Source of the DNA: a virus
Taxonomy: Duplodnaviria > Heunggongvirae > Uroviricota > Caudoviricetes
Virus record (IMG/VR): IMGVR_UViG_2695420412_000003
Span: 1 to 6,631 of that record
Direction: 5' to 3' (one strand)
Length of the DNA: 6,631 bases
Of this stretch, positions 960-6,225 are shown piece by piece. Position numbers and translations under genes: made by a program. The notes beneath the pieces were generated by a model. That model was given only the letters and a program-made list of their open reading frames with translations. It searched no databases and had not been told where the DNA came from. Each line of letters begins with the position of its first letter. Position 1 is the stretch's first letter.

Positions 960-1092
960 TTTTCGGGACTCCTGGCTGATTAAGTATGTCGATAAGGCGT
1001 TTCCATCCGTCACGTAATTTACGGGTAATTCGTTCAAGTAAAGATTCGGAAGGGCAGCCAGCAACAGGCCACCCTGCAATGGCATATTGCAT
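928..1092 (-). CDS. cIII: cIII, FtsH (HflB) protease inhibitor that stabilises cII (54 aa)
   Basis: Hand translation of the minus strand from the ATG at 1090-1092 gives [54 protein letters not shown], then TAA at 928-930. This matches lambda cIII as I recall it. It is absent from the ORF track, presumably because it is short. Confidence 0.85.
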   Translation of the reverse strand: MQYAIAGWPVAGCPSESLLERITRKLRDGWKRLIDILNQPGVPKNGSNNYGYPD

Positions 1093-1158
1093 GGTGTGCT
1101 CCTTATTTATTTACACATAACGAAAACGCCTCTAGTGAAGCGTTATTGGTATGCATAT

Positions 1159-1182
1159 AAAAAAGCCCTCACATTGGAGGGC
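1159..1182 (-). terminator. Intrinsic terminator on the leftward transcript, between the 156-aa orphan gene and cIII
   Basis: Plus strand has gccctc (1165-1170), loop acattg, gagggc (1177-1182), preceded by aaaaaa (1159-1164). On the minus strand this is a 6-bp GC-rich stem followed by a run of six U. Confidence 0.5.
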
Positions 1183-1286: not shown

Positions 1287-1757
1287 CTAATAAAACACCC
1301 AGTTTTCTGTTTCTTGGTTGTGTCCAAAGTTATATTCAATATCTGGTATTGATGTATCAATATTCTTCATCCCATCAACAAGAGTTGATACAACAGCCAA
1401 ATCTTGTTTGATTCTCATTAAATGGTATTTCTTCCGGTGCAATAAACTCTCAATGGCAAGTTTCTTCGTTGGGAATGCAAAAGATCTTTCTGCATTTTTT
1501 GCTACTTTCTTAATTGCATATCTATTTCTCCTTTGTTTCCATTCCTGTAACCACTGATTTGGTGCTGGTTTAAAATTAACAATCCAATGCGCAGGAACCA
1601 ACCATGCATAATGCTCTGTCTGATGAAAAGCTATATATTGAAGTGCGAATATTTTTATCCCATCTTCTTCAACTGTCGCCTGGAATCTCCAGAAAACAGG
1701 CATTCCATCATGTTCAGTTTCTGATTCAGGAAAAGGTACGCTCCATGATTTTGTCAT
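1287..1757 (-). CDS. Hypothetical protein, 156 aa, no family recognised; accessory ('moron') candidate in the N-cIII interval
   Basis: Complete ORF with a GAGGTGA Shine-Dalgarno about 5 nt upstream of the ATG at 1755-1757. The region is visibly AT-rich relative to the flanking lambda-like genes. An intrinsic terminator lies downstream. The plus-strand ORFs overlapping it look like antisense artefacts. Confidence 0.7.
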   Translation of the reverse strand: MTKSWSVPFPESETEHDGMPVFWRFQATVEEDGIKIFALQYIAFHQTEHYAWLVPAHWIVNFKPAPNQWLQEWKQRRNRYAIKKVAKNAERSFAFPTKKLAIESLLHRKKYHLMRIKQDLAVVSTLVDGMKNIDTSIPDIEYNFGHNQETENWVFY

Positions 1758-1815: not shown

Positions 1816-2088
1816 TCACCTCGCCGTCAGTTGTTTTGATTTCCGGTAGCCTGCCGCGTAAAGAGCTACGTTCGGAAGACAAGTTGAACCTTCATATTTT
1901 CTGGTCAACGTTGTCAGAGTTATAACTTCTGCTCTCATTGCTGGTTTGCGCTTGCATTGCAAGACCACTCGTGAAGGGGTTGGCCTGTGTAGCTTGTCGG
2001 AGCTGATCGCCTCCTGACTTTGCAGATTTGCGCGACGAGCTCTACGGCGAGAAGCTGCGGTGCCTTTAAATTCTGTTTTTCTGGACAT
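1816..2088 (-). CDS. N: N-family transcription antiterminator (91 aa from the internal ATG of the 1816..2160 ORF)
   Basis: The ATG at 2086-2088 is preceded by GGGAGGA. The N-terminus MSRKTEFKGTAASRRRARRANLQSQEA carries an arginine-rich motif typical of lambdoid N proteins and resembles the phage 21 class rather than lambda. The gene sits directly downstream of a nutL-like boxA/boxB, in the canonical position. Confidence 0.7.
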   Translation of the reverse strand: MSRKTEFKGTAASRRRARRANLQSQEAISSDKLHRPTPSRVVLQCKRKPAMRAEVITLTTLTRKYEGSTCLPNVALYAAGYRKSKQLTAR

Positions 2089-2186
2089 GGATTCCTCCCG
2101 AATAAACTTTGGCGATGCAATCTCGAAGCTCCTCCTGAGACGGTTGCTTCGGCATTGCATCCCACAGCTTATGTGGTTGGGTGATC

Positions 2187-2231
2187 TGGCTTTTCAGCCA
2201 CGTAGTCGAGAGTCGACGTTGTTTAAAGAGC
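2187..2231 (-). promoter_or_regulatory. nutL-like site: boxA, spacer hairpin, boxB (read on the minus strand)
   Basis: Minus strand reads GCTCTTTAAACAACG (boxA-like; plus 2223-2231), then a spacer with a GTCGA/TCGAC hairpin, then TGGC-TGAAAA-GCCA (boxB-like stem-loop; plus 2187-2200). The same architecture recurs at nutR (4866-4911) with a compensatory change in the boxB stem. Confidence 0.55.
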
Positions 2232-2277
2232 CTGCCAGTCTGTTCCATTTGGCTTCCAGCGTCCTGCTGACGGTTAA

Positions 2278-2320
2278 ATAGTACGATATGTGCTTTACAA
2301 GATCAATACAATTTGTTGTA
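2278..2320 (-). promoter_or_regulatory. Candidate pL promoter with overlapping oL operator(s)
   Basis: Minus strand shows TTGATC (plus 2301-2306) as a -35, a 17-nt spacer, then TACTAT (plus 2278-2283) as a -10. This places the transcription start about 45 nt upstream of boxA. An adjacent inverted repeat TACAA-N4-TTGTA (2307-2320) shares the TTGTA/TACA motif found in the cI-cro intergenic region. Assigned by eye only. Confidence 0.3.
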
Positions 2321-2524: not shown

Positions 2525-3277
2525 TTATGCTGCAAGTCTCTTAATCCAAGTCTCTCTTTTGGAGAATGGTAGAACTTGGCTTGATTCATGGAAGAGTAAG
2601 GAGAGTTGTTGCATTTGATCACCAATTGCTTCGCTGTCTATAACAACAAATCTGTTGTTATACTCCTCACTTGAAGCTTTAAGATCAATTAGTTTCCCAA
2701 GCAATGAGTAAGCACTATTCCAGCTTCCTCCGTGTTTCACGCTTGATGTAAAAACGTATTTAGGTATGTCGGTTTTTATTGTTACAGGGACGGTAATTTG
2801 ATGTCCACTCAAGCCATATACGTTTTCACGAAGAGAAAGTGCGTCTCTAAGCTCTGTGTGATATAGATAATCAATAACCATACTTTCAAACTTTTCAGCT
2901 TGAACTGGCTGATACCAGTCTAACGACAAAGTTGATGCGAGTATACCAGCTCTAATTATGTTCGATGTAATCGCACCGACATCCTTTTCTGTTGCCCAAG
3001 CAATGATTTCTCCTCGAGCATTGAGTTCTGCGCCTTCTTTAAGCAGTAATTGTCGTATCTCATCAAGTCGTTTTTTGGTAAGCGAGATCCCTCTTGCCTC
3101 CATATTCATTAAGGCATCGCATCTGTCACTAACTAAATACCTACCATTGACTTCACGGATAAAGGCACCGACATGCTCTCCATCATCACAGTAAGTGAAT
3201 GGACTGATAATTCTCAAGGTCTTGCCTATTGGATGGCATTCGAAACCTAGTTGTGAGATCACTGTTGAGCACATCAT
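2525..3277 (-). CDS. Hypothetical protein, 250 aa, no family recognised; distal gene of the two-gene cassette at the rexAB-equivalent position
   Basis: Complete ORF whose ATG (3275-3277) overlaps the upstream gene's TGA (3274-3276) in an ATGA arrangement, indicating translational coupling. AT-rich. No obvious Walker, nuclease or transmembrane motif seen by eye. Followed immediately by an intrinsic terminator. Confidence 0.75.
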   Translation of the reverse strand: MMCSTVISQLGFECHPIGKTLRIISPFTYCDDGEHVGAFIREVNGRYLVSDRCDALMNMEARGISLTKKRLDEIRQLLLKEGAELNARGEIIAWATEKDVGAITSNIIRAGILASTLSLDWYQPVQAEKFESMVIDYLYHTELRDALSLRENVYGLSGHQITVPVTIKTDIPKYVFTSSVKHGGSWNSAYSLLGKLIDLKASSEEYNNRFVVIDSEAIGDQMQQLSLLFHESSQVLPFSKRETWIKRLAA

Positions 3278-3831
3278 ATTCCAAACCCCATTTGCCCCGA
3301 CTCATCTTCAAGCGGTAAAGGTATTCTCCCAGAGTAAGTTATGTTCAGATGTTTACAGAAGTAATTCCAATACCCTACCAGGTCATCTGGGTTTATGTCA
3401 TCTTCGATTGGAAACGCTATTCTATCACTATAGTATCCAGCTTCTTCATAGTATACATGGTAGTGAGCACCGTAAATGATATCTTGGTACTTCGGATGAT
3501 CGACCTTGTAACTATTCGTGTGTTTGTCAAAGTGATAGGTATCTACCGCGAAAACCCTCTTGTTATGATAGAAAGCAATAATATTTATTTTAGGGTAAGA
3601 AATCGGGTCATCAGGTTCTGAATCCTGATCTGGTTTCCATTTCAGTTCAAACTTTAGCCCTTGTATAGGTATACAATCCTCATCCAAGGGGATGATATGA
3701 GCTTGTAGCCACATATCAGAGCGACTTGGTTTCTGTTTCCATTTAACGCCAGAAAAGTTAACTATTTTTTTACAATAAAGTACTTTATCAACTTCTACTT
3801 GGCTTGGCTGATAATCATCTATTTTTGCCAA
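3274..3831 (-). CDS. Hypothetical acidic Tyr/His/Asp-rich protein, up to 185 aa, no family recognised; proximal gene of the rex-position cassette
   Basis: The ORF opens 39 nt downstream of the cI stop. The first codon in the track is TTG (3829-3831) with a GGGCGG-like Shine-Dalgarno about 8 nt upstream. The first in-frame ATG is at codon 40 and has no Shine-Dalgarno, so the start is uncertain. Coding-like composition continues from 3831. Confidence 0.65.
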   Translation of the reverse strand: MAKIDDYQPSQVEVDKVLYCKKIVNFSGVKWKQKPSRSDMWLQAHIIPLDEDCIPIQGLKFELKWKPDQDSEPDDPISYPKINIIAFYHNKRVFAVDTYHFDKHTNSYKVDHPKYQDIIYGAHYHVYYEEAGYYSDRIAFPIEDDINPDDLVGYWNYFCKHLNITYSGRIPLPLEDESGQMGFGI

Positions 3832-3870: not shown

Positions 3871-4566
3871 TCACCCAAACGTCTCTTCAGGCCATTGGCT
3901 GGCGATAACTTTCCCCACAACGGAACAACTCTCATTGCATGGGATCATTGGGTATTGTGGGTTTAGTGGCTGTAGAAACACCTGACCGCTATCCCTGATC
4001 AGTTTCTTGAAGGTAAATTCATCACCACCAAGTCTGGCTATGCAGAAATCGCCGGGCTCAACAGCTTGCTCAGGGTCAACCAGAATTAACATCCCGTCAG
4101 GAAAGCTGGGTTTGGAACCTGTTGGTGCGGTCATTGAGTTACCTTCAACCTCAAGCCAGAATGCAGAGTCACTGGCTTTTTTGGTTGTGCTTACCAATCT
4201 CTCCGCATCGCCTTTGGTAAAGGTTCTGAGTTCTGGAGAGAACATCCCAGCCTGAACATGAGAAAAAACAGGGTACTCATATTGTTTTTTAACTGGGGCC
4301 GATGAGTATTCGCCAACAGGTGAAAATGTCCCGTCGTGGTTGAATGATATGTTATCAATACCAAGGTATTTAAACACCACACCAATATCACTAAGAGATG
4401 GATGACGAGATCCGCGCAACCAGTGTCCAATCCCACCCTGCGTCATACCTAGCTCTTCGGCTAACTTCTCTTGAGTTATGCCGAGCTCTTTCATTCTGGA
4501 TCTAGCCAGTTCATACCATTTCATTTTCATGTCCTTATTATTACGCTTTGTACTGGAATCATCCAT
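3871..4566 (-). CDS. cI: cI-type prophage repressor: heterologous N-terminal HTH domain fused to a lambda-identical LexA-like S24 autocleavage domain
   Basis: From about [28 protein letters not shown]... to ...[12 protein letters not shown] the C-terminal half matches lambda cI as I recall it, including the GNSM serine motif. The N-terminal part ([52 protein letters not shown]...) is a different HTH domain. The ORF track starts at a TTG (4570-4572); I place the start at the ATG at 4564-4566, which has no Shine-Dalgarno and may be leaderless as in lambda pRM. The start is uncertain by a few codons. Confidence 0.9.
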
Positions 4567-4639
4567 GCACAATGTGTATTTTTACTTGTATTCGTAAAGT
4601 ACATATTGTATTTTTATTCGTGTTTACTATGGAGGGCAT
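4567..4639. promoter_or_regulatory. oR/pR/pRM divergent control region between cI and cro
   Basis: A 73-bp AT-rich intergenic region lies between divergent repressor genes. It contains the inverted repeat TACTT-N9-AAGTA (4583-4601) and TACA-N3-TGTA (4600-4610), plus repeated TTGTATT motifs. Candidate pR elements are TTTACT (4581-4586) and TATTGT (4604-4609); GGAGGG (4631-4636) is the cro Shine-Dalgarno. Confidence 0.5.
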
Positions 4640-4855: not shown

Positions 4856-4865
4856 TAAGCGGATC

Positions 4866-4911
4866 CGCTCTTTGTAACAACGGACATTCGTCCTACGTCG
4901 CTGAAAAGCGA
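4866..4911 (+). promoter_or_regulatory. nutR-like site: boxA, spacer hairpin, boxB
   Basis: CGCTCTTTGTAACAACG (boxA-like, from 4866), then a GGAC-ATTC-GTCC hairpin (4882-4893), then TCGC-TGAAAA-GCGA (boxB-like, 4898-4911). It lies between cro and cII, as in lambda. Confidence 0.55.
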
Positions 4912-4978
4912 GTTCCAAGATATCTGACCAACTAAGGCCATATGCGTTTCCACGCATACCTTTCAACTAACTATTCAC

Positions 4979-5325: not shown

Positions 5326-6225
5326 ATGACAAATACAGCAAAAATACTCAACTTCTGCAGAGGTAACTTTGCCAAACAGGAGCGTAATGTGGCAGATCTC
5401 GATGATGGTTACGCCAGACTATCAAATATGCTGCTTGAGGCTTATTCAGGCGCAGATCTGACCAAGCGACAGTTTAAAGTGCTGCTTGCCATTCTGCGTA
5501 AAACCTATGGGTGGAATAAACCAATGGACAGAATCACCGATTCTCAACTTAGCGAGATTACAAAGTTACCTGTCAAACGGTGCAATGAAGCCAAGTTAGA
5601 ACTCGTCAGAATGAATATTATCAAGCAGCAAGGCGGCATGTTTGGACCAAATAAAAACATCTCAGAATGGTGTATCCCTCAAAACGAGGGAAAATCCCCT
5701 AAAACGAGGGATAAAACATCCCTCAAATTGGGGGATTGCTATCCCTCAAAACAGGGGGACACAAAAGACACTATTACAAAAGAAAAAAGAAAAGATTATT
5801 CGTCAGAGAATTCTGGCGAATCCTCTGACCAGCCAGAAAACGATCTTTCTGTGGTTAAACCGGATGCTGCAATTCAGAGCGGCAGCAAGTGGGGAACAGC
5901 AGAAGACCTGACCGCCGCAGAGTGGATGTTTGACATGGTGAAGACCATCGCGCCATCAGCCAGAAAACCGAATTTTGCTGGGTGGGCTAACGATATCCGC
6001 CTGATGCGTGAACGTGACGGACGTAACCACCGCGATATGTGTGTGCTTTTCCGCTGGGCCTGCCAGGACAACTTCTGGTCCGGTAACGTGCTGAGTCCGG
6101 CCAAACTCCGCGACAAGTGGACTCAGCTCGAAATCAACCGTAACAAGCAACAGGCAGTCGTGACAGCCAGCAAACCAAAACTCGACCTGACAAACACAGA
6201 CTGGATTTACGGGGTGGATCTATGA
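5326..6225 (+). CDS. O: Replication initiator protein O (299 aa)
   Basis: The 299-aa product MTNTAKILNF...WIYGVDL matches lambda O from memory, with at most a few substitutions. It contains the origin iterons and its stop overlaps the P start (ATGA at 6222-6225). Confidence 0.95.
   Translation: MTNTAKILNFCRGNFAKQERNVADLDDGYARLSNMLLEAYSGADLTKRQFKVLLAILRKTYGWNKPMDRITDSQLSEITKLPVKRCNEAKLELVRMNIIKQQGGMFGPNKNISEWCIPQNEGKSPKTRDKTSLKLGDCYPSKQGDTKDTITKEKRKDYSSENSGESSDQPENDLSVVKPDAAIQSGSKWGTAEDLTAAEWMFDMVKTIAPSARKPNFAGWANDIRLMRERDGRNHRDMCVLFRWACQDNFWSGNVLSPAKLRDKWTQLEINRNKQQAVVTASKPKLDLTNTDWIYGVDL
5674..5800. repeat. Lambda-type replication origin inside O: four ~18-19 bp iterons plus an adjacent AT-rich unwinding region
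   Basis: Iterons atccctcaaaacgaggga (5674-5691), atcccctaaaacgagggat (5694-5712), atccctcaaattgggggat (5718-5736) and atccctcaaaacagggggac (5741-5760), each an imperfect inverted repeat. They are followed by the A-rich tract acaaaagacactattacaaaagaaaaaagaaaag (5761-5794). Confidence 0.85.

What the first reader, a model, noticed from the sequence alone, without database searches (positions are those of the whole stretch)
2187..2231. nutL and nutR share an unusual three-part architecture with a compensatory base change in the boxB stem
Both nut sites have boxA (GCTCTTT[A/G]...AACAACG), a short spacer hairpin, and a boxB with the same TGAAAA loop. The boxB stems differ as TGGC/GCCA (nutL, 2187-2200) versus TCGC/GCGA (nutR, 4898-4911): a G-C pair becomes C-G while pairing is preserved. 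That covariation supports a functional RNA hairpin. The N protein's arginine-rich motif is not lambda's, so this may be a distinct N/boxB specificity pair, and the extra spacer hairpin is not a feature I recall from lambda nut sites.
Basis: partly seen in the sequence, partly recalled or inferred. Interest (0 to 1): 0.4.

Follow-up and report, generated by a model that had tools for sequence, protein, structure and literature searches.

The report
Known-type phage nutL/nutR antitermination sites
These are the two RNA signals (nutL and nutR) through which this lambda-like E. coli prophage's N protein keeps early transcription from terminating; identical sites are already annotated in Shiga-toxin phage VT2-Sakai, and the only mildly new point is that their N-binding hairpin has a plain four-base GNRA loop that always travels with its own class of N proteins.

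Summary
A boxA / spacer hairpin / UACG / boxB module occurs exactly twice, once downstream of pL (2231-2187, minus strand) and once downstream of cro (4867-4911, plus strand). The two boxB stems differ by a G-C to C-G swap.

It is not new. Both sites are base-for-base identical to the "putative N-utilization" features annotated in phage VT2-Sakai, and the N protein is 100% identical. The spacer hairpin is the hallmark of H-19B/933W-type nut sites. The window's nutR shares its spacer hairpin, linker and boxB stem with H-19B nutR.

One correction: the boxB loop is not UGAAAA. It is a GAAA tetraloop closed by a U-A pair, and that pair becomes C-G in relatives.

[quoted passage not shown] The 933W/H-19B ARM class never had a tetraloop: it had GACAA pentaloops, plus one odd nutL variant. 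The rule holds across 19 cro contexts and in near-isogenic phage pairs. A 2008 phage epsilon34 paper had already predicted a novel boxB specificity for this ARM type.

Low interest; ordinary, common lambdoid regulation.

The parts
2187..2231 (-). nutL as a whole: boxA, spacer hairpin, UACG linker and boxB, in the pL transcript
   Evidence: Sequence. Pattern match with 0 expected by chance. Identical to the feature 'putative N-utilization leftward' of AP000422.1.
2219..2231 (-). nutL boxA, GCUCUUUAAACAA
   Evidence: The first 8 nt, GCTCTTTA, equal the annotated boxA-L of phage 21. The resemblance to the rrn boxA consensus is from my own knowledge.
2205..2217 (-). nutL spacer hairpin, GUCGA-CUC-UCGAC
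   Evidence: Folds at -3.5 kcal/mol. The stem is flush with ACAACG and UACG. Only 12 of 5000 shuffles do as well. Relatives keep the stem while the loop varies.
2187..2200 (-). nutL boxB, UGGCU-GAAA-AGCCA: 5-bp stem plus GNRA tetraloop (loop at 2195-2192)
   Evidence: Fold. Covariation: 100% of cells paired, 3 of 5 pairs with double changes.
4867..4911 (+). nutR as a whole, in the pR transcript between cro and cII
   Evidence: Identical to 'putative N-utilization rightward' of AP000422.1. The spacer hairpin, linker and boxB stem are identical to H-19B nutR.
4867..4880 (+). nutR boxA, GCUCUUUGUAACAA
   Evidence: Sequence.
4882..4893 (+). nutR spacer hairpin, GGAC-AUUC-GUCC
   Evidence: The same hairpin is in 933W, H-19B and HK97 nutR. 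Variants GGGC/GUCC and GGGC/GCCC show the A-U to G.U to G-C path.
4898..4911 (+). nutR boxB, UCGCU-GAAA-AGCGA (loop at 4903-4906)
   Evidence: It differs from H-19B/933W nutR boxB (UCGCU-GACAA-AGCGA) only by lacking the loop C.
1816..2088 (-). N gene (90 aa). The ARM is roughly residues 5-25: TEFKGTAASRRRARRANLQSQ
   Evidence: Pfam PF25694 N_peptide, E 3.4e-32. 100% identical to N of VT2-Sakai, Stx1-converting phage, YYZ-2008, 1717 and 2851.
2278..2306 (-). pL (TTGATC, 17 nt, TACTAT), placed by homology
   Evidence: Maps onto the 'putative major leftward promoter' of AP000422.1. The sequence was read. The strict consensus scan did not find it.
4586..4614 (+). pR, placed by homology (may be off by 1 nt)
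   Evidence: Maps onto the 'putative major rightward promoter' of AP000422.1.
4942..4968 (+). tR1 region downstream of nutR (hairpin AUGCGU-UUCC-ACGCAU)
   Evidence: Annotated 'putative rho dependent terminator for pR transcript' in AP000422.1. The same sequence follows H-19B nutR, where nutR/tR1 was studied experimentally (PMC3526286).
1125..1182 (-). Two tandem intrinsic-terminator-like hairpins in the pL operon, before cIII
   Evidence: 1182-1165 (6 bp followed by TTTTTT) and 1144-1125 (8 bp followed by TT-rich sequence).

Best explanation
The two elements are the nutL and nutR sites of a lambdoid N-antitermination system of the VT2-Sakai type.

Proposed mechanism:
1. RNA polymerase starting at pL or pR transcribes boxA, then a short spacer hairpin, then boxB.
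2. [quoted passage not shown]
3. NusB/S10 bind the consensus-like boxA. NusA and NusG complete a complex that stays tethered to the polymerase.
4. The modified polymerase reads through tR1 on the right, reaching cII, O and P. On the left it reads through the tandem terminators before cIII, kil, gam and bet.

The spacer hairpin tucks away 12-13 nt. That leaves about 10 single-stranded nucleotides (AACAAC + UACG) between boxA and boxB, close to lambda's 8-9.

What is shown here: the sequences, their placement, conservation and covariation of both hairpins, and the strict pairing of ARM class with loop type.

What is inferred from lambda, P22 and H-19B work: actual N binding, Nus-factor dependence, antitermination, and the role of the spacer hairpin.
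For: - N belongs to the N_peptide family.
- Each nut module lies on the transcribed strand between an early promoter and terminators.
- The sites are identical to annotated nut sites of VT2-Sakai.
- nutR shares its spacer hairpin, UACG linker, boxB stem and downstream tR1 with H-19B nutR/tR1. That region has been footprinted with N, NusA and Rho (PMC3526286).
- BoxB covariation over 9 distinct tetraloop boxBs: 45 of 45 cells paired, and 3 of 5 pairs show changes on both sides. Pair types are U-A/A-U/C-G, G-C/C-G/A-U and U-A/C-G. No shuffle reached the observed covariation score (0 of 500), and slid registers collapse.
- The loops seen are GAAA, GCAA and GUAA, that is GNAA.
- All 25 distinct spacers form a hairpin flush with ACAAYG and UACG, using 7 different stem starts.
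- ARM class against loop type: 131 nutL and 121 nutR sites of this ARM class are all tetraloops. 42 nutL and 41 nutR sites of the 933W/H-19B class include no tetraloop: 76 are GACAA pentaloops and 7 nutL carry the odd GCUC-CGUCAAC-GAGC hairpin.
- The rule holds across 19 cro contexts, 4 of which occur with both classes.
- Phages g341c and SPN9CC are near-identical across this region. Apart from a few scattered substitutions and the last few codons of N, their differences lie in the two boxBs and the ARM codons.
Against: - No experiment on this N or these sites was found, and none can be run here.
- The minimum-free-energy fold of the 61-nt nut RNAs is not the two-hairpin structure. It pairs boxA with the boxB 3' strand: -16.3 against -11.7 kcal/mol for nutR, and -14.2 against -12.0 for nutL. 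The z-scores of the whole region are unremarkable (-1.3 and -1.4).
- The U-A to C-G change of the closing pair is seen only in two related lineages (L020 and L186/L187), so it may be a single evolutionary event.
- Many of the 175 loci are close relatives, so the counts overstate the number of independent events.
Confidence: 0.9

Rival explanations
1. BoxB is a 4-bp stem with a UGAAAA hexaloop. It would then be recognised in a way unrelated to the GNRA fold.
For: The U and A flanking GAAA are invariant in E. coli and Salmonella members. A U-A pair closing a tetraloop is thermodynamically weak.
Against: RNAfold pairs the U and A. In Tatumella (L020) and IMG/VR loci L186/L187 the pair is C-G (UGGCC-GAAA/GUAA-GGCCA), a change on both sides. 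SPN9CC nutR has U.G at the same position. Loop variation is confined to the N position of GNRA. From my own knowledge, the homologous U-A is paired in the solved lambda and P22 boxB complexes.
Confidence: 0.1
2. The tetraloop-versus-pentaloop difference has no role in specificity. The two N classes would be interchangeable, and the ARM/loop association would reflect co-inheritance only.
For: nutL lies about 100 nt from the ARM codons, so linkage alone could explain the nutL association. From my own knowledge of the Franklin and Cocozaki work, N peptides of lambda and P22 tolerate a range of boxB variants.
Against: nutR lies 2.5-4 kb away, across the highly mosaic immunity region, and still matches the ARM class in 162 of 162 loci. 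Four cro types occur with both classes, and there the nutR loop follows N, not cro. In g341c versus SPN9CC, the 135-column cro-cII alignment differs at 3 columns: 2 in the boxB loop and closing pair, and 1 just 3' of boxB.
Confidence: 0.25
3. The spacer hairpin is itself a specific protein-binding or processing site, for NusA, Rho or an RNase. It would then be more than a passive device that hides spacer nucleotides.
For: In H-19B nutR the spacer is protected by NusA (with N) and by Rho (PMC3526286). The hairpin position, flush between ACAAYG and UACG, is invariant.
Against: At least 7 unrelated stem sequences and many loop sequences occupy the slot, which argues against sequence-specific recognition of the hairpin. 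As I recall the abstract of Neely and Friedman 2000 (not readable here), deleting the dyad in H-19B had little effect, whereas disrupting one arm inactivated NUT.
Confidence: 0.2
4. The palindromes act at the DNA level, or as terminators for antisense transcription, rather than as nut RNA.
For: The consensus scan flags the antisense of the nutL spacer hairpin plus the T-rich complement of boxA as terminator-like (2205-2217, plus strand).
Against: That stem has only 5 bp and a 3-nt loop. The number of terminator-like hits in the region is no higher than in shuffles (4 found, 3.1 expected). nutR has no such antisense match. Covariation preserves RNA pairing, including G.U intermediates on the sense strand only (GGGC/GUCC).
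Confidence: 0.03

Closest known systems
VT2-Sakai (Stx2 phage Sakai) nutL/nutR and N, GenBank AP000422.1; also Stx1-converting phage AP005153, YYZ-2008, 1717 and 2851
   Same: N is 100% identical. nutL and nutR are base-for-base identical from boxA through boxB. They are annotated there as putative N-utilization leftward and rightward.
   Different: Nothing in the nut sites themselves. The window comes from a related non-Stx-type prophage (99% identical to phages ev017 and PhiR57_1). The genes flanking the immunity region partly differ.
H-19B / 933W / HK97 N-NUT system (Neely and Friedman 1998, 2000; work from the Sen laboratory, PMC3526286)
   Same: The layout is the same: boxA-like region ending ACAAYG, spacer hairpin, UACG, boxB. 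The nutR spacer hairpin GGACAUUCGUCC, the linker, the boxB stem UCGCU/AGCGA and tR1 are identical. The N C-terminus CLPNVALYAAGYRKSKQLTAR is shared.
   Different: The boxB loop is GACAA (a pentaloop, as in P22) rather than GAAA. The ARM is RRRERLKAKALANG rather than RRRARRANLQ. N is 127 aa with an extra central segment and 40% overall identity. The H-19B/933W boxA is degenerate (GCUAUUU, or absent at nutL), whereas the window has consensus GCUCUUU.
Phage lambda N / nutL, nutR
   Same: The logic and gene order are the same: boxA followed by boxB in the pL and pR transcripts. The inner boxB motif CU-GAxA-AG is shared, and so is a GNRA-type fold.
   Different: From my own knowledge, lambda boxB has a GAAAA or GAAGA pentaloop, no spacer hairpin, an 8-9 nt linear spacer, and the ARM MDAQTRRRERRAEKQAQW. 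It has no significant sequence similarity to this N apart from the arginine cluster.
Phage P22 gp24 / boxB (PDB 1A4T)
   Same: The inner boxB, GCU-loop-AGC, is the same. In P22 the loop C of GACAA is flipped out and touches the peptide (PMC12550061). The window's loop is that pentaloop minus the C.
   Different: P22-type nut sites have no spacer hairpin (L014). The ARM is GNAKTRRHERRRKLAIERD.
Phage 21 N / boxB (PDB 1NYB)
   Same: The ARM core KGTAxSRxxARRAxL is identical to the window's at 12 of 17 positions, and boxA is GCTCTTTA.
   Different: Phage 21 boxB has a 7-bp stem with a CUAACC hexaloop and no spacer hairpin (PMC12550061).
Salmonella phage epsilon34 / g341c gp43 (N)
   Same: The ARM class is the same (FNGSAAGRRRERRAALQ), and both nut sites have GAAA-tetraloop boxBs. 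Villafane et al. 2008 predicted 'a novel BoxB specificity' for it (PMC2629481).
   Different: The body of that N protein is 933W-like (120 aa). Its nutL boxA lacks GCUCUUU, and its spacer hairpin is GAUUCA-GUGA-UGAAUC.

Membership tests
Lambdoid N/nut processive antitermination | An N-family protein with an N-terminal arginine-rich motif, encoded as the first gene of the pL operon | tested here: met
   PF25694 N_peptide, E 3.4e-32, covering 1-90. The gene lies directly downstream of pL and nutL.
Lambdoid N/nut processive antitermination | Two nut sites, one in each early transcript, on the transcribed strand and upstream of terminators | tested here: met
   Exactly two matches, each on the correct strand. 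Terminators lie downstream.
Lambdoid N/nut processive antitermination | A boxA element (GCUCUUUA-type) located 5' of boxB | tested here: met
   GCTCTTTA is present in both sites. It is identical to the annotated boxA of phage 21.
Lambdoid N/nut processive antitermination | A boxB stem-loop maintained by compensatory changes, with a GNRA-type loop | tested here: met
   100% of cells paired, 3 of 5 pairs with double changes, and loops GAAA, GCAA and GUAA.
Lambdoid N/nut processive antitermination | N binds boxB RNA and, with Nus factors, suppresses downstream terminators | not testable with these tools
   This needs reporter or binding assays. It is inferred from homology to H-19B, lambda and P22.
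H-19B-type NUT (spacer-hairpin nut sites) | Dyad symmetry (a hairpin) in the spacer between boxA and boxB | tested here: met
   Hairpins at 2217-2205 and 4882-4893. All 25 distinct spacers in relatives form flush hairpins. H-19B nutR has two hairpins (PMC3526286; sequence).
H-19B-type NUT (spacer-hairpin nut sites) | A GACAA pentaloop boxB with the cognate RRRERLKAKALANG ARM | tested here: not met
   The window has a GAAA tetraloop and an RRRARRANLQ ARM. It is a sister specificity class, not the H-19B class itself.
H-19B-type NUT (spacer-hairpin nut sites) | Degenerate or dispensable boxA and independence from NusB/S10 (as I recall from Neely and Friedman 2000) | tested here: inconclusive
   The window's boxA is consensus-like, unlike H-19B/933W, which hints at NusB/S10 use. 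Function cannot be tested here.
Rfam RNA families | A match to a curated covariance model for a nut or boxB element | tested here: not met
   No nut family matched at E up to 1. The only significant hit in the window was Lambda_thermo.

The most novel reading that the evidence does not exclude
The VT2-Sakai / epsilon34 / Citrobacter-Kluyvera-Tatumella N proteins and their boxBs would form a fourth N-boxB recognition class that has not been characterised biochemically. Its RNA would be a canonical GNRA tetraloop, with no flipped-out base as in lambda and P22 and no hexaloop mimic as in phage 21. It would be read by an ARM whose core resembles that of phage 21, and told apart from the 933W/H-19B class by a single loop nucleotide. 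If so, one-nucleotile loop insertions or deletions together with an ARM cassette swap would be the natural route by which lambdoid phages switch antitermination specificity. Because N-ARM/boxB pairs are widely used as RNA-tethering tools, this pair could also serve as an orthogonal tether.
Probability: 0.45. Interest if true: 0.4.

Novelty: already known. Interest (0 to 1): 0.2.

Why it matters
As a finding in this window it matters little. It re-identifies standard, already annotated regulatory sites of a very common prophage type: the N + nutL module is present in 759 of 5,426 complete E. coli genomes.

The comparative by-product has modest value. It gives a clean natural example of protein-RNA co-variation: an ARM cassette and two boxB loops, kilobases apart, switch together. 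It also points to a plain GNRA-tetraloop boxB class, carried by many Shiga-toxin phages, that I could not find described experimentally. That class could be used to ask how N discriminates a tetraloop from a pentaloop, and whether the flipped-out loop base of lambda and P22 is needed at all.

Tried and rejected
- PDB sequence search with N found nothing, even at E up to 10. The solved N peptides are too short or too divergent, so no structural transfer by sequence was possible.
- Rfam has no nut or boxB family.
- Several papers are not held in the library and could not be read: Neely and Friedman 2000, Cocozaki 2008, and Cilley and Williamson 2003. Statements about their content rest on my memory and are marked as such.
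- The literature searches did not return any paper describing a tetraloop boxB class or VT2-Sakai nut function.
- The consensus promoter scan missed pL and pR. I placed them by homology to the VT2-Sakai annotation instead.
- Folding the 61-nt nut regions gave non-significant z-scores and a non-canonical minimum-energy structure. I do not use whole-region folding as evidence.
- I considered that the base preceding boxA (GGCU in nutL, CGCU in nutR) co-varies with boxB stem position 2, which would keep an alternative boxA:boxB-3'-strand pairing. Relatives do not maintain this, for example AGCU or UGCU with UGGCU, and CGCU with UAGCU. I rejected it as coincidence.
- My first attempt at the cro-context clustering used a regular expression that missed all tetraloops. 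It was corrected.

Full report
**1. Observation.**
The window is a lambdoid early/immunity region. Gene order and Pfam matches are: gam, kil/cIII, a 156-aa ORF, N (minus strand), two accessory genes, cI (minus strand), cro, cII, O, and the start of P.

The described elements are present as stated.
- nutL, minus strand: GCUCUUUAAACAA (2231-2219), GUCGA-CUC-UCGAC (2217-2205), UACG (2204-2201), UGGCUGAAAAGCCA (2200-2187).
- nutR, plus strand: GCUCUUUGUAACAA (4867-4880), GGAC-AUUC-GUCC (4882-4893), UACG (4894-4897), UCGCUGAAAAGCGA (4898-4911).

A pattern covering ACAACG, a gap, TACG and boxB hits exactly these two places. Each lies on the strand transcribed from the adjacent early promoter. None of 200 shuffles gave a match. 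The two boxB stems differ by a G-C to C-G exchange at stem position 2, so the compensatory change is real.

**2. Context.**
nutL lies about 45-90 nt downstream of a pL that maps onto the VT2-Sakai annotation: TTGATC, 17 nt, TACTAT at 2306-2278 on the minus strand. It lies about 100 nt upstream of N.

nutR lies 11 nt after the cro stop codon. It is upstream of a hairpin region annotated in VT2-Sakai as the Rho-dependent tR1.

Further down the pL operon, two intrinsic-terminator-like hairpins precede cIII. The elements therefore sit where nut sites must sit to be useful.

**3. Already annotated.**
The N protein is 100% identical to N of VT2-Sakai, the Stx1-converting phage of Sato et al., YYZ-2008, 1717, 2851 and many other Stx phages.

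From boxA through boxB, both nut sites are identical to the features 'putative N-utilization leftward' and 'putative N-utilization rightward' of GenBank AP000422.1.

The window as a whole is 99% identical to the temperate coliphages ev017, ev207, PhiR57_1 and PhiR63_2. The N + nutL module occurs in 759 of 5,426 complete E. coli genomes.

**4. The three-part architecture is the H-19B type.**
933W, HK97 and H-19B have the same layout: a boxA-like stretch ending in ACAAYG, a hairpin, UACG, then boxB.

H-19B nutR reads CGCUAUUUUCACAAUG-GACAUUCGUCC-UACG-UCGCUGACAAAGCGA. Its spacer hairpin, linker, boxB stem and downstream tR1 sequence are identical to the window's nutR.

[quoted passage not shown] Neely and Friedman 2000 (Mol Microbiol 38:1074) is cited in PMC3202840 but cannot be read here. 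As I recall its abstract, it dealt with exactly this spacer dyad symmetry.

So the 'extra spacer hairpin' is indeed absent from lambda, P22-type sites (L014) and phage 21. But it is a known feature of this phage group.

**5. BoxB is a GNRA tetraloop hairpin.**
RNAfold closes the loop with U-A, giving UNGCU-GAAA-AGCNA.

Among relatives I found 9 distinct boxBs of this type. On the 5-bp model every cell is paired (45 of 45). Three of the five pairs show changes on both sides:
- position 1: U-A, A-U, C-G;
- position 2: G-C, C-G, A-U;
- the closing pair: U-A, C-G.

No shuffle of 500 reached the observed covariation score, and all slid registers collapse.

Loop sequences are GAAA, GCAA and GUAA, so variation is confined to the N of GNRA.

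One caveat: the C-G closing pair is seen only in two related lineages (Tatumella L020 and IMG/VR L186/L187), so it may be a single event.

Compared with H-19B, 933W and P22 (GACAA), the loop lacks the C. In the P22 complex that C is flipped out and touches the peptide (PMC12550061).

**6. ARM class and loop type travel together.**
I collected 175 loci with N genes of this family, giving 57 distinct proteins and 26 distinct ARMs. They came from phage records, one-genome-per-species bacterial assemblies and IMG/VR.

Two ARM classes appear.
- The window's class, ..G[ST][AS]x[SGT]RRRxxRxxLQ.., had tetraloop boxBs at all 131 nutL and all 121 nutR sites.
- The 933W/H-19B class, RRRERLKAKALANG, had no tetraloop at any of its 42 nutL and 41 nutR sites. 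76 are GACAA pentaloops, and 7 nutL (SPN9CC type) carry the odd hairpin GCUC-CGUCAAC-GAGC.

Linkage cannot explain the nutR result.
- The loci fall into 19 cro-sequence contexts. Four of these occur with both N classes. In all of them the nutR loop follows N rather than cro.
- Salmonella phages g341c and SPN9CC act as a natural swap experiment. The pL leader and N gene are essentially identical, apart from a few scattered substitutions. The exceptions are the nutL boxB, the ARM codons and the last few codons of N. The 135-column cro-cII alignment differs at three columns: two in the boxB loop and closing pair, and one just 3' of boxB.
- Mosaic N proteins keep the rule. Examples are this ARM on a 933W-like body in g341c and Kluyvera, and on a lambda-like C-terminus in Tatumella.

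It remains comparative evidence only.

**7. The spacer hairpin is conserved as a structure, not as a sequence.**
All 25 distinct spacers form a hairpin of 3-6 bp. In every case the first base is the G of ACAAYG and the last base immediately precedes UACG.

Seven unrelated stem starts occur: GUCG, GAUU, GGAC, GGGC, GGCC, GGUG and GGC. Loops drift freely. The series GGAC/GUCC to GGGC/GUCC to GGGC/GCCC shows the classic A-U to G.U to G-C path.

With the hairpin folded, about 10 single-stranded nucleotides separate boxA from boxB. From my own knowledge, lambda has 8-9. This fits a role as a device that hides surplus spacer sequence, but that role is inferred.

**8. BoxA.**
Unlike H-19B, 933W and g341c, whose 5' boxA half is degenerate or missing, both sites here carry GCUCUUU. 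Their first eight bases equal the annotated boxA of phage 21. 'AACAACG' is the tail of this extended boxA plus the first hairpin base. A testable consequence is that this system may depend on NusB/S10, whereas H-19B reportedly does not (as I recall).

**9. ARM relatives.**
The ARM core KGTAASRRRARRANL shares 12 of 17 positions with phage 21 N (KGTAKSRYKARRAEL). I recalled the phage 21 sequence from memory and confirmed it at 100% against phage 21 record OL657228. Yet phage 21 boxB is a 7-bp stem with a CUAACC hexaloop. Sequence similarity of ARMs therefore does not predict the RNA target.

**10. Mechanism and rivals.**
The best-supported reading is standard N antitermination: N-ARM on boxB, NusB/S10 on boxA, plus NusA and NusG. 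The modified polymerase then reads through tR1 and the pL-operon terminators.

Rivals considered:
- a hexaloop reading of boxB (disfavoured);
- no real specificity difference between the classes (disfavoured, but not excluded);
- an active role for the spacer hairpin (possible);
- a DNA-level or antisense-terminator role (very unlikely).

**11. Novelty.**
The finding as written is already known. The sites are annotated, and the architecture has been studied in H-19B.

Villafane et al. 2008 noted that the N-terminal 27 residues of epsilon34 N are divergent, and they predicted 'a novel BoxB specificity' (PMC2629481). The searches I ran returned no description of the tetraloop nature of this class, nor any experiment on it.

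**12. Limits.**
- Nothing here demonstrates binding or antitermination.
- Many of the surveyed loci are close relatives.
- Whole-region minimum-energy folds prefer an alternative boxA:boxB pairing, whose significance is unknown.

Noticed in passing
window 2525-3277 (-) and 3274-3831 (-): Two overlapping accessory genes lie between cI and pL, the position rexAB occupies in lambda. One is a DUF1828 protein of 250 aa; the other is a DUF6978-like protein of 185 aa. They match the PADLOC candidate defence system PDC-M24B/A (E 6e-10 and 5e-4). An intrinsic terminator follows at 2521-2500 (-). This is probably a prophage-encoded defence or exclusion pair expressed with cI.
   Followed up: partly
window 2094-2180 (-): A long stem-loop lies in the N leader between nutL and the N ribosome-binding site: -39.3 kcal/mol, z -3.36. 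It resembles the lambda N-leader stem, which as I recall is cut by RNase III and takes part in N autoregulation. Relatives carry the same inverted repeat.
   Followed up: partly
window 1047-1105 (-): Rfam Lambda_thermo, the cIII thermoregulator, matches at 88.5 bits, E 3e-21.
   Followed up: no
window 1125-1182 (-): Two tandem intrinsic-terminator-like hairpins lie between the 156-aa ORF and cIII. They are likely targets of N antitermination in the pL operon.
   Followed up: no
window 4860-4920 (+) and 2180-2240 (-): The predicted minimum-energy fold pairs boxA (CGCU..UUU) with the boxB loop and 3' strand, enclosing the spacer hairpin. Energies are -16.3 against -11.7 kcal/mol for the canonical two-hairpin form in nutR, and -14.2 against -12.0 in nutL. 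The z-scores are unremarkable. This echoes the 'alternative NUT RNA structures' in the title of the H-19B paper.
   Followed up: partly
L007 (Salmonella phage SPN9CC), about 4380-4395 (+), and its nutR: An N with the 933W-type ARM has two different boxBs. Its nutL is GCUC-CGUCAAC-GAGC (a 7-nt loop, or GUCAA with a C.C closure). Its nutR is UCGCU-GACAA-GGCGA with a U.G closing pair.
   Followed up: no
L188 (phage 21) 3346-3400 (+) compared with window N residues 6-22: The window's ARM core is 12 of 17 identical to the phage 21 N ARM, although the two boxBs are structurally unrelated: tetraloop with a 5-bp stem, against CUAACC hexaloop with a 7-bp stem.
   Followed up: partly
L009 and L015 (Segatella copri MAG contigs); L012 (394-bp Xanthomonas pisi contig): Coliphage N/nut regions, 98% identical to the window's N or of 933W type, appear in assemblies labelled as Bacteroidota and Xanthomonas. 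This is almost certainly binning or assembly contamination.
   Followed up: no
window 5680-5765 (+): Four iteron-like repeats (ATCCCTCAAAACGAGGGA and variants) lie inside the O gene, which is the expected lambda-type origin. Read directly from the sequence.
   Followed up: no
window 1287-1757 (-): A 156-aa ORF directly downstream of N has no Pfam or PADLOC match. ORFs of the same length occupy the same position in 933W and HK97. Records of close relatives label a gene in this stretch as superinfection exclusion / SieB. I did not resolve whether that label refers to this ORF.
   Followed up: no
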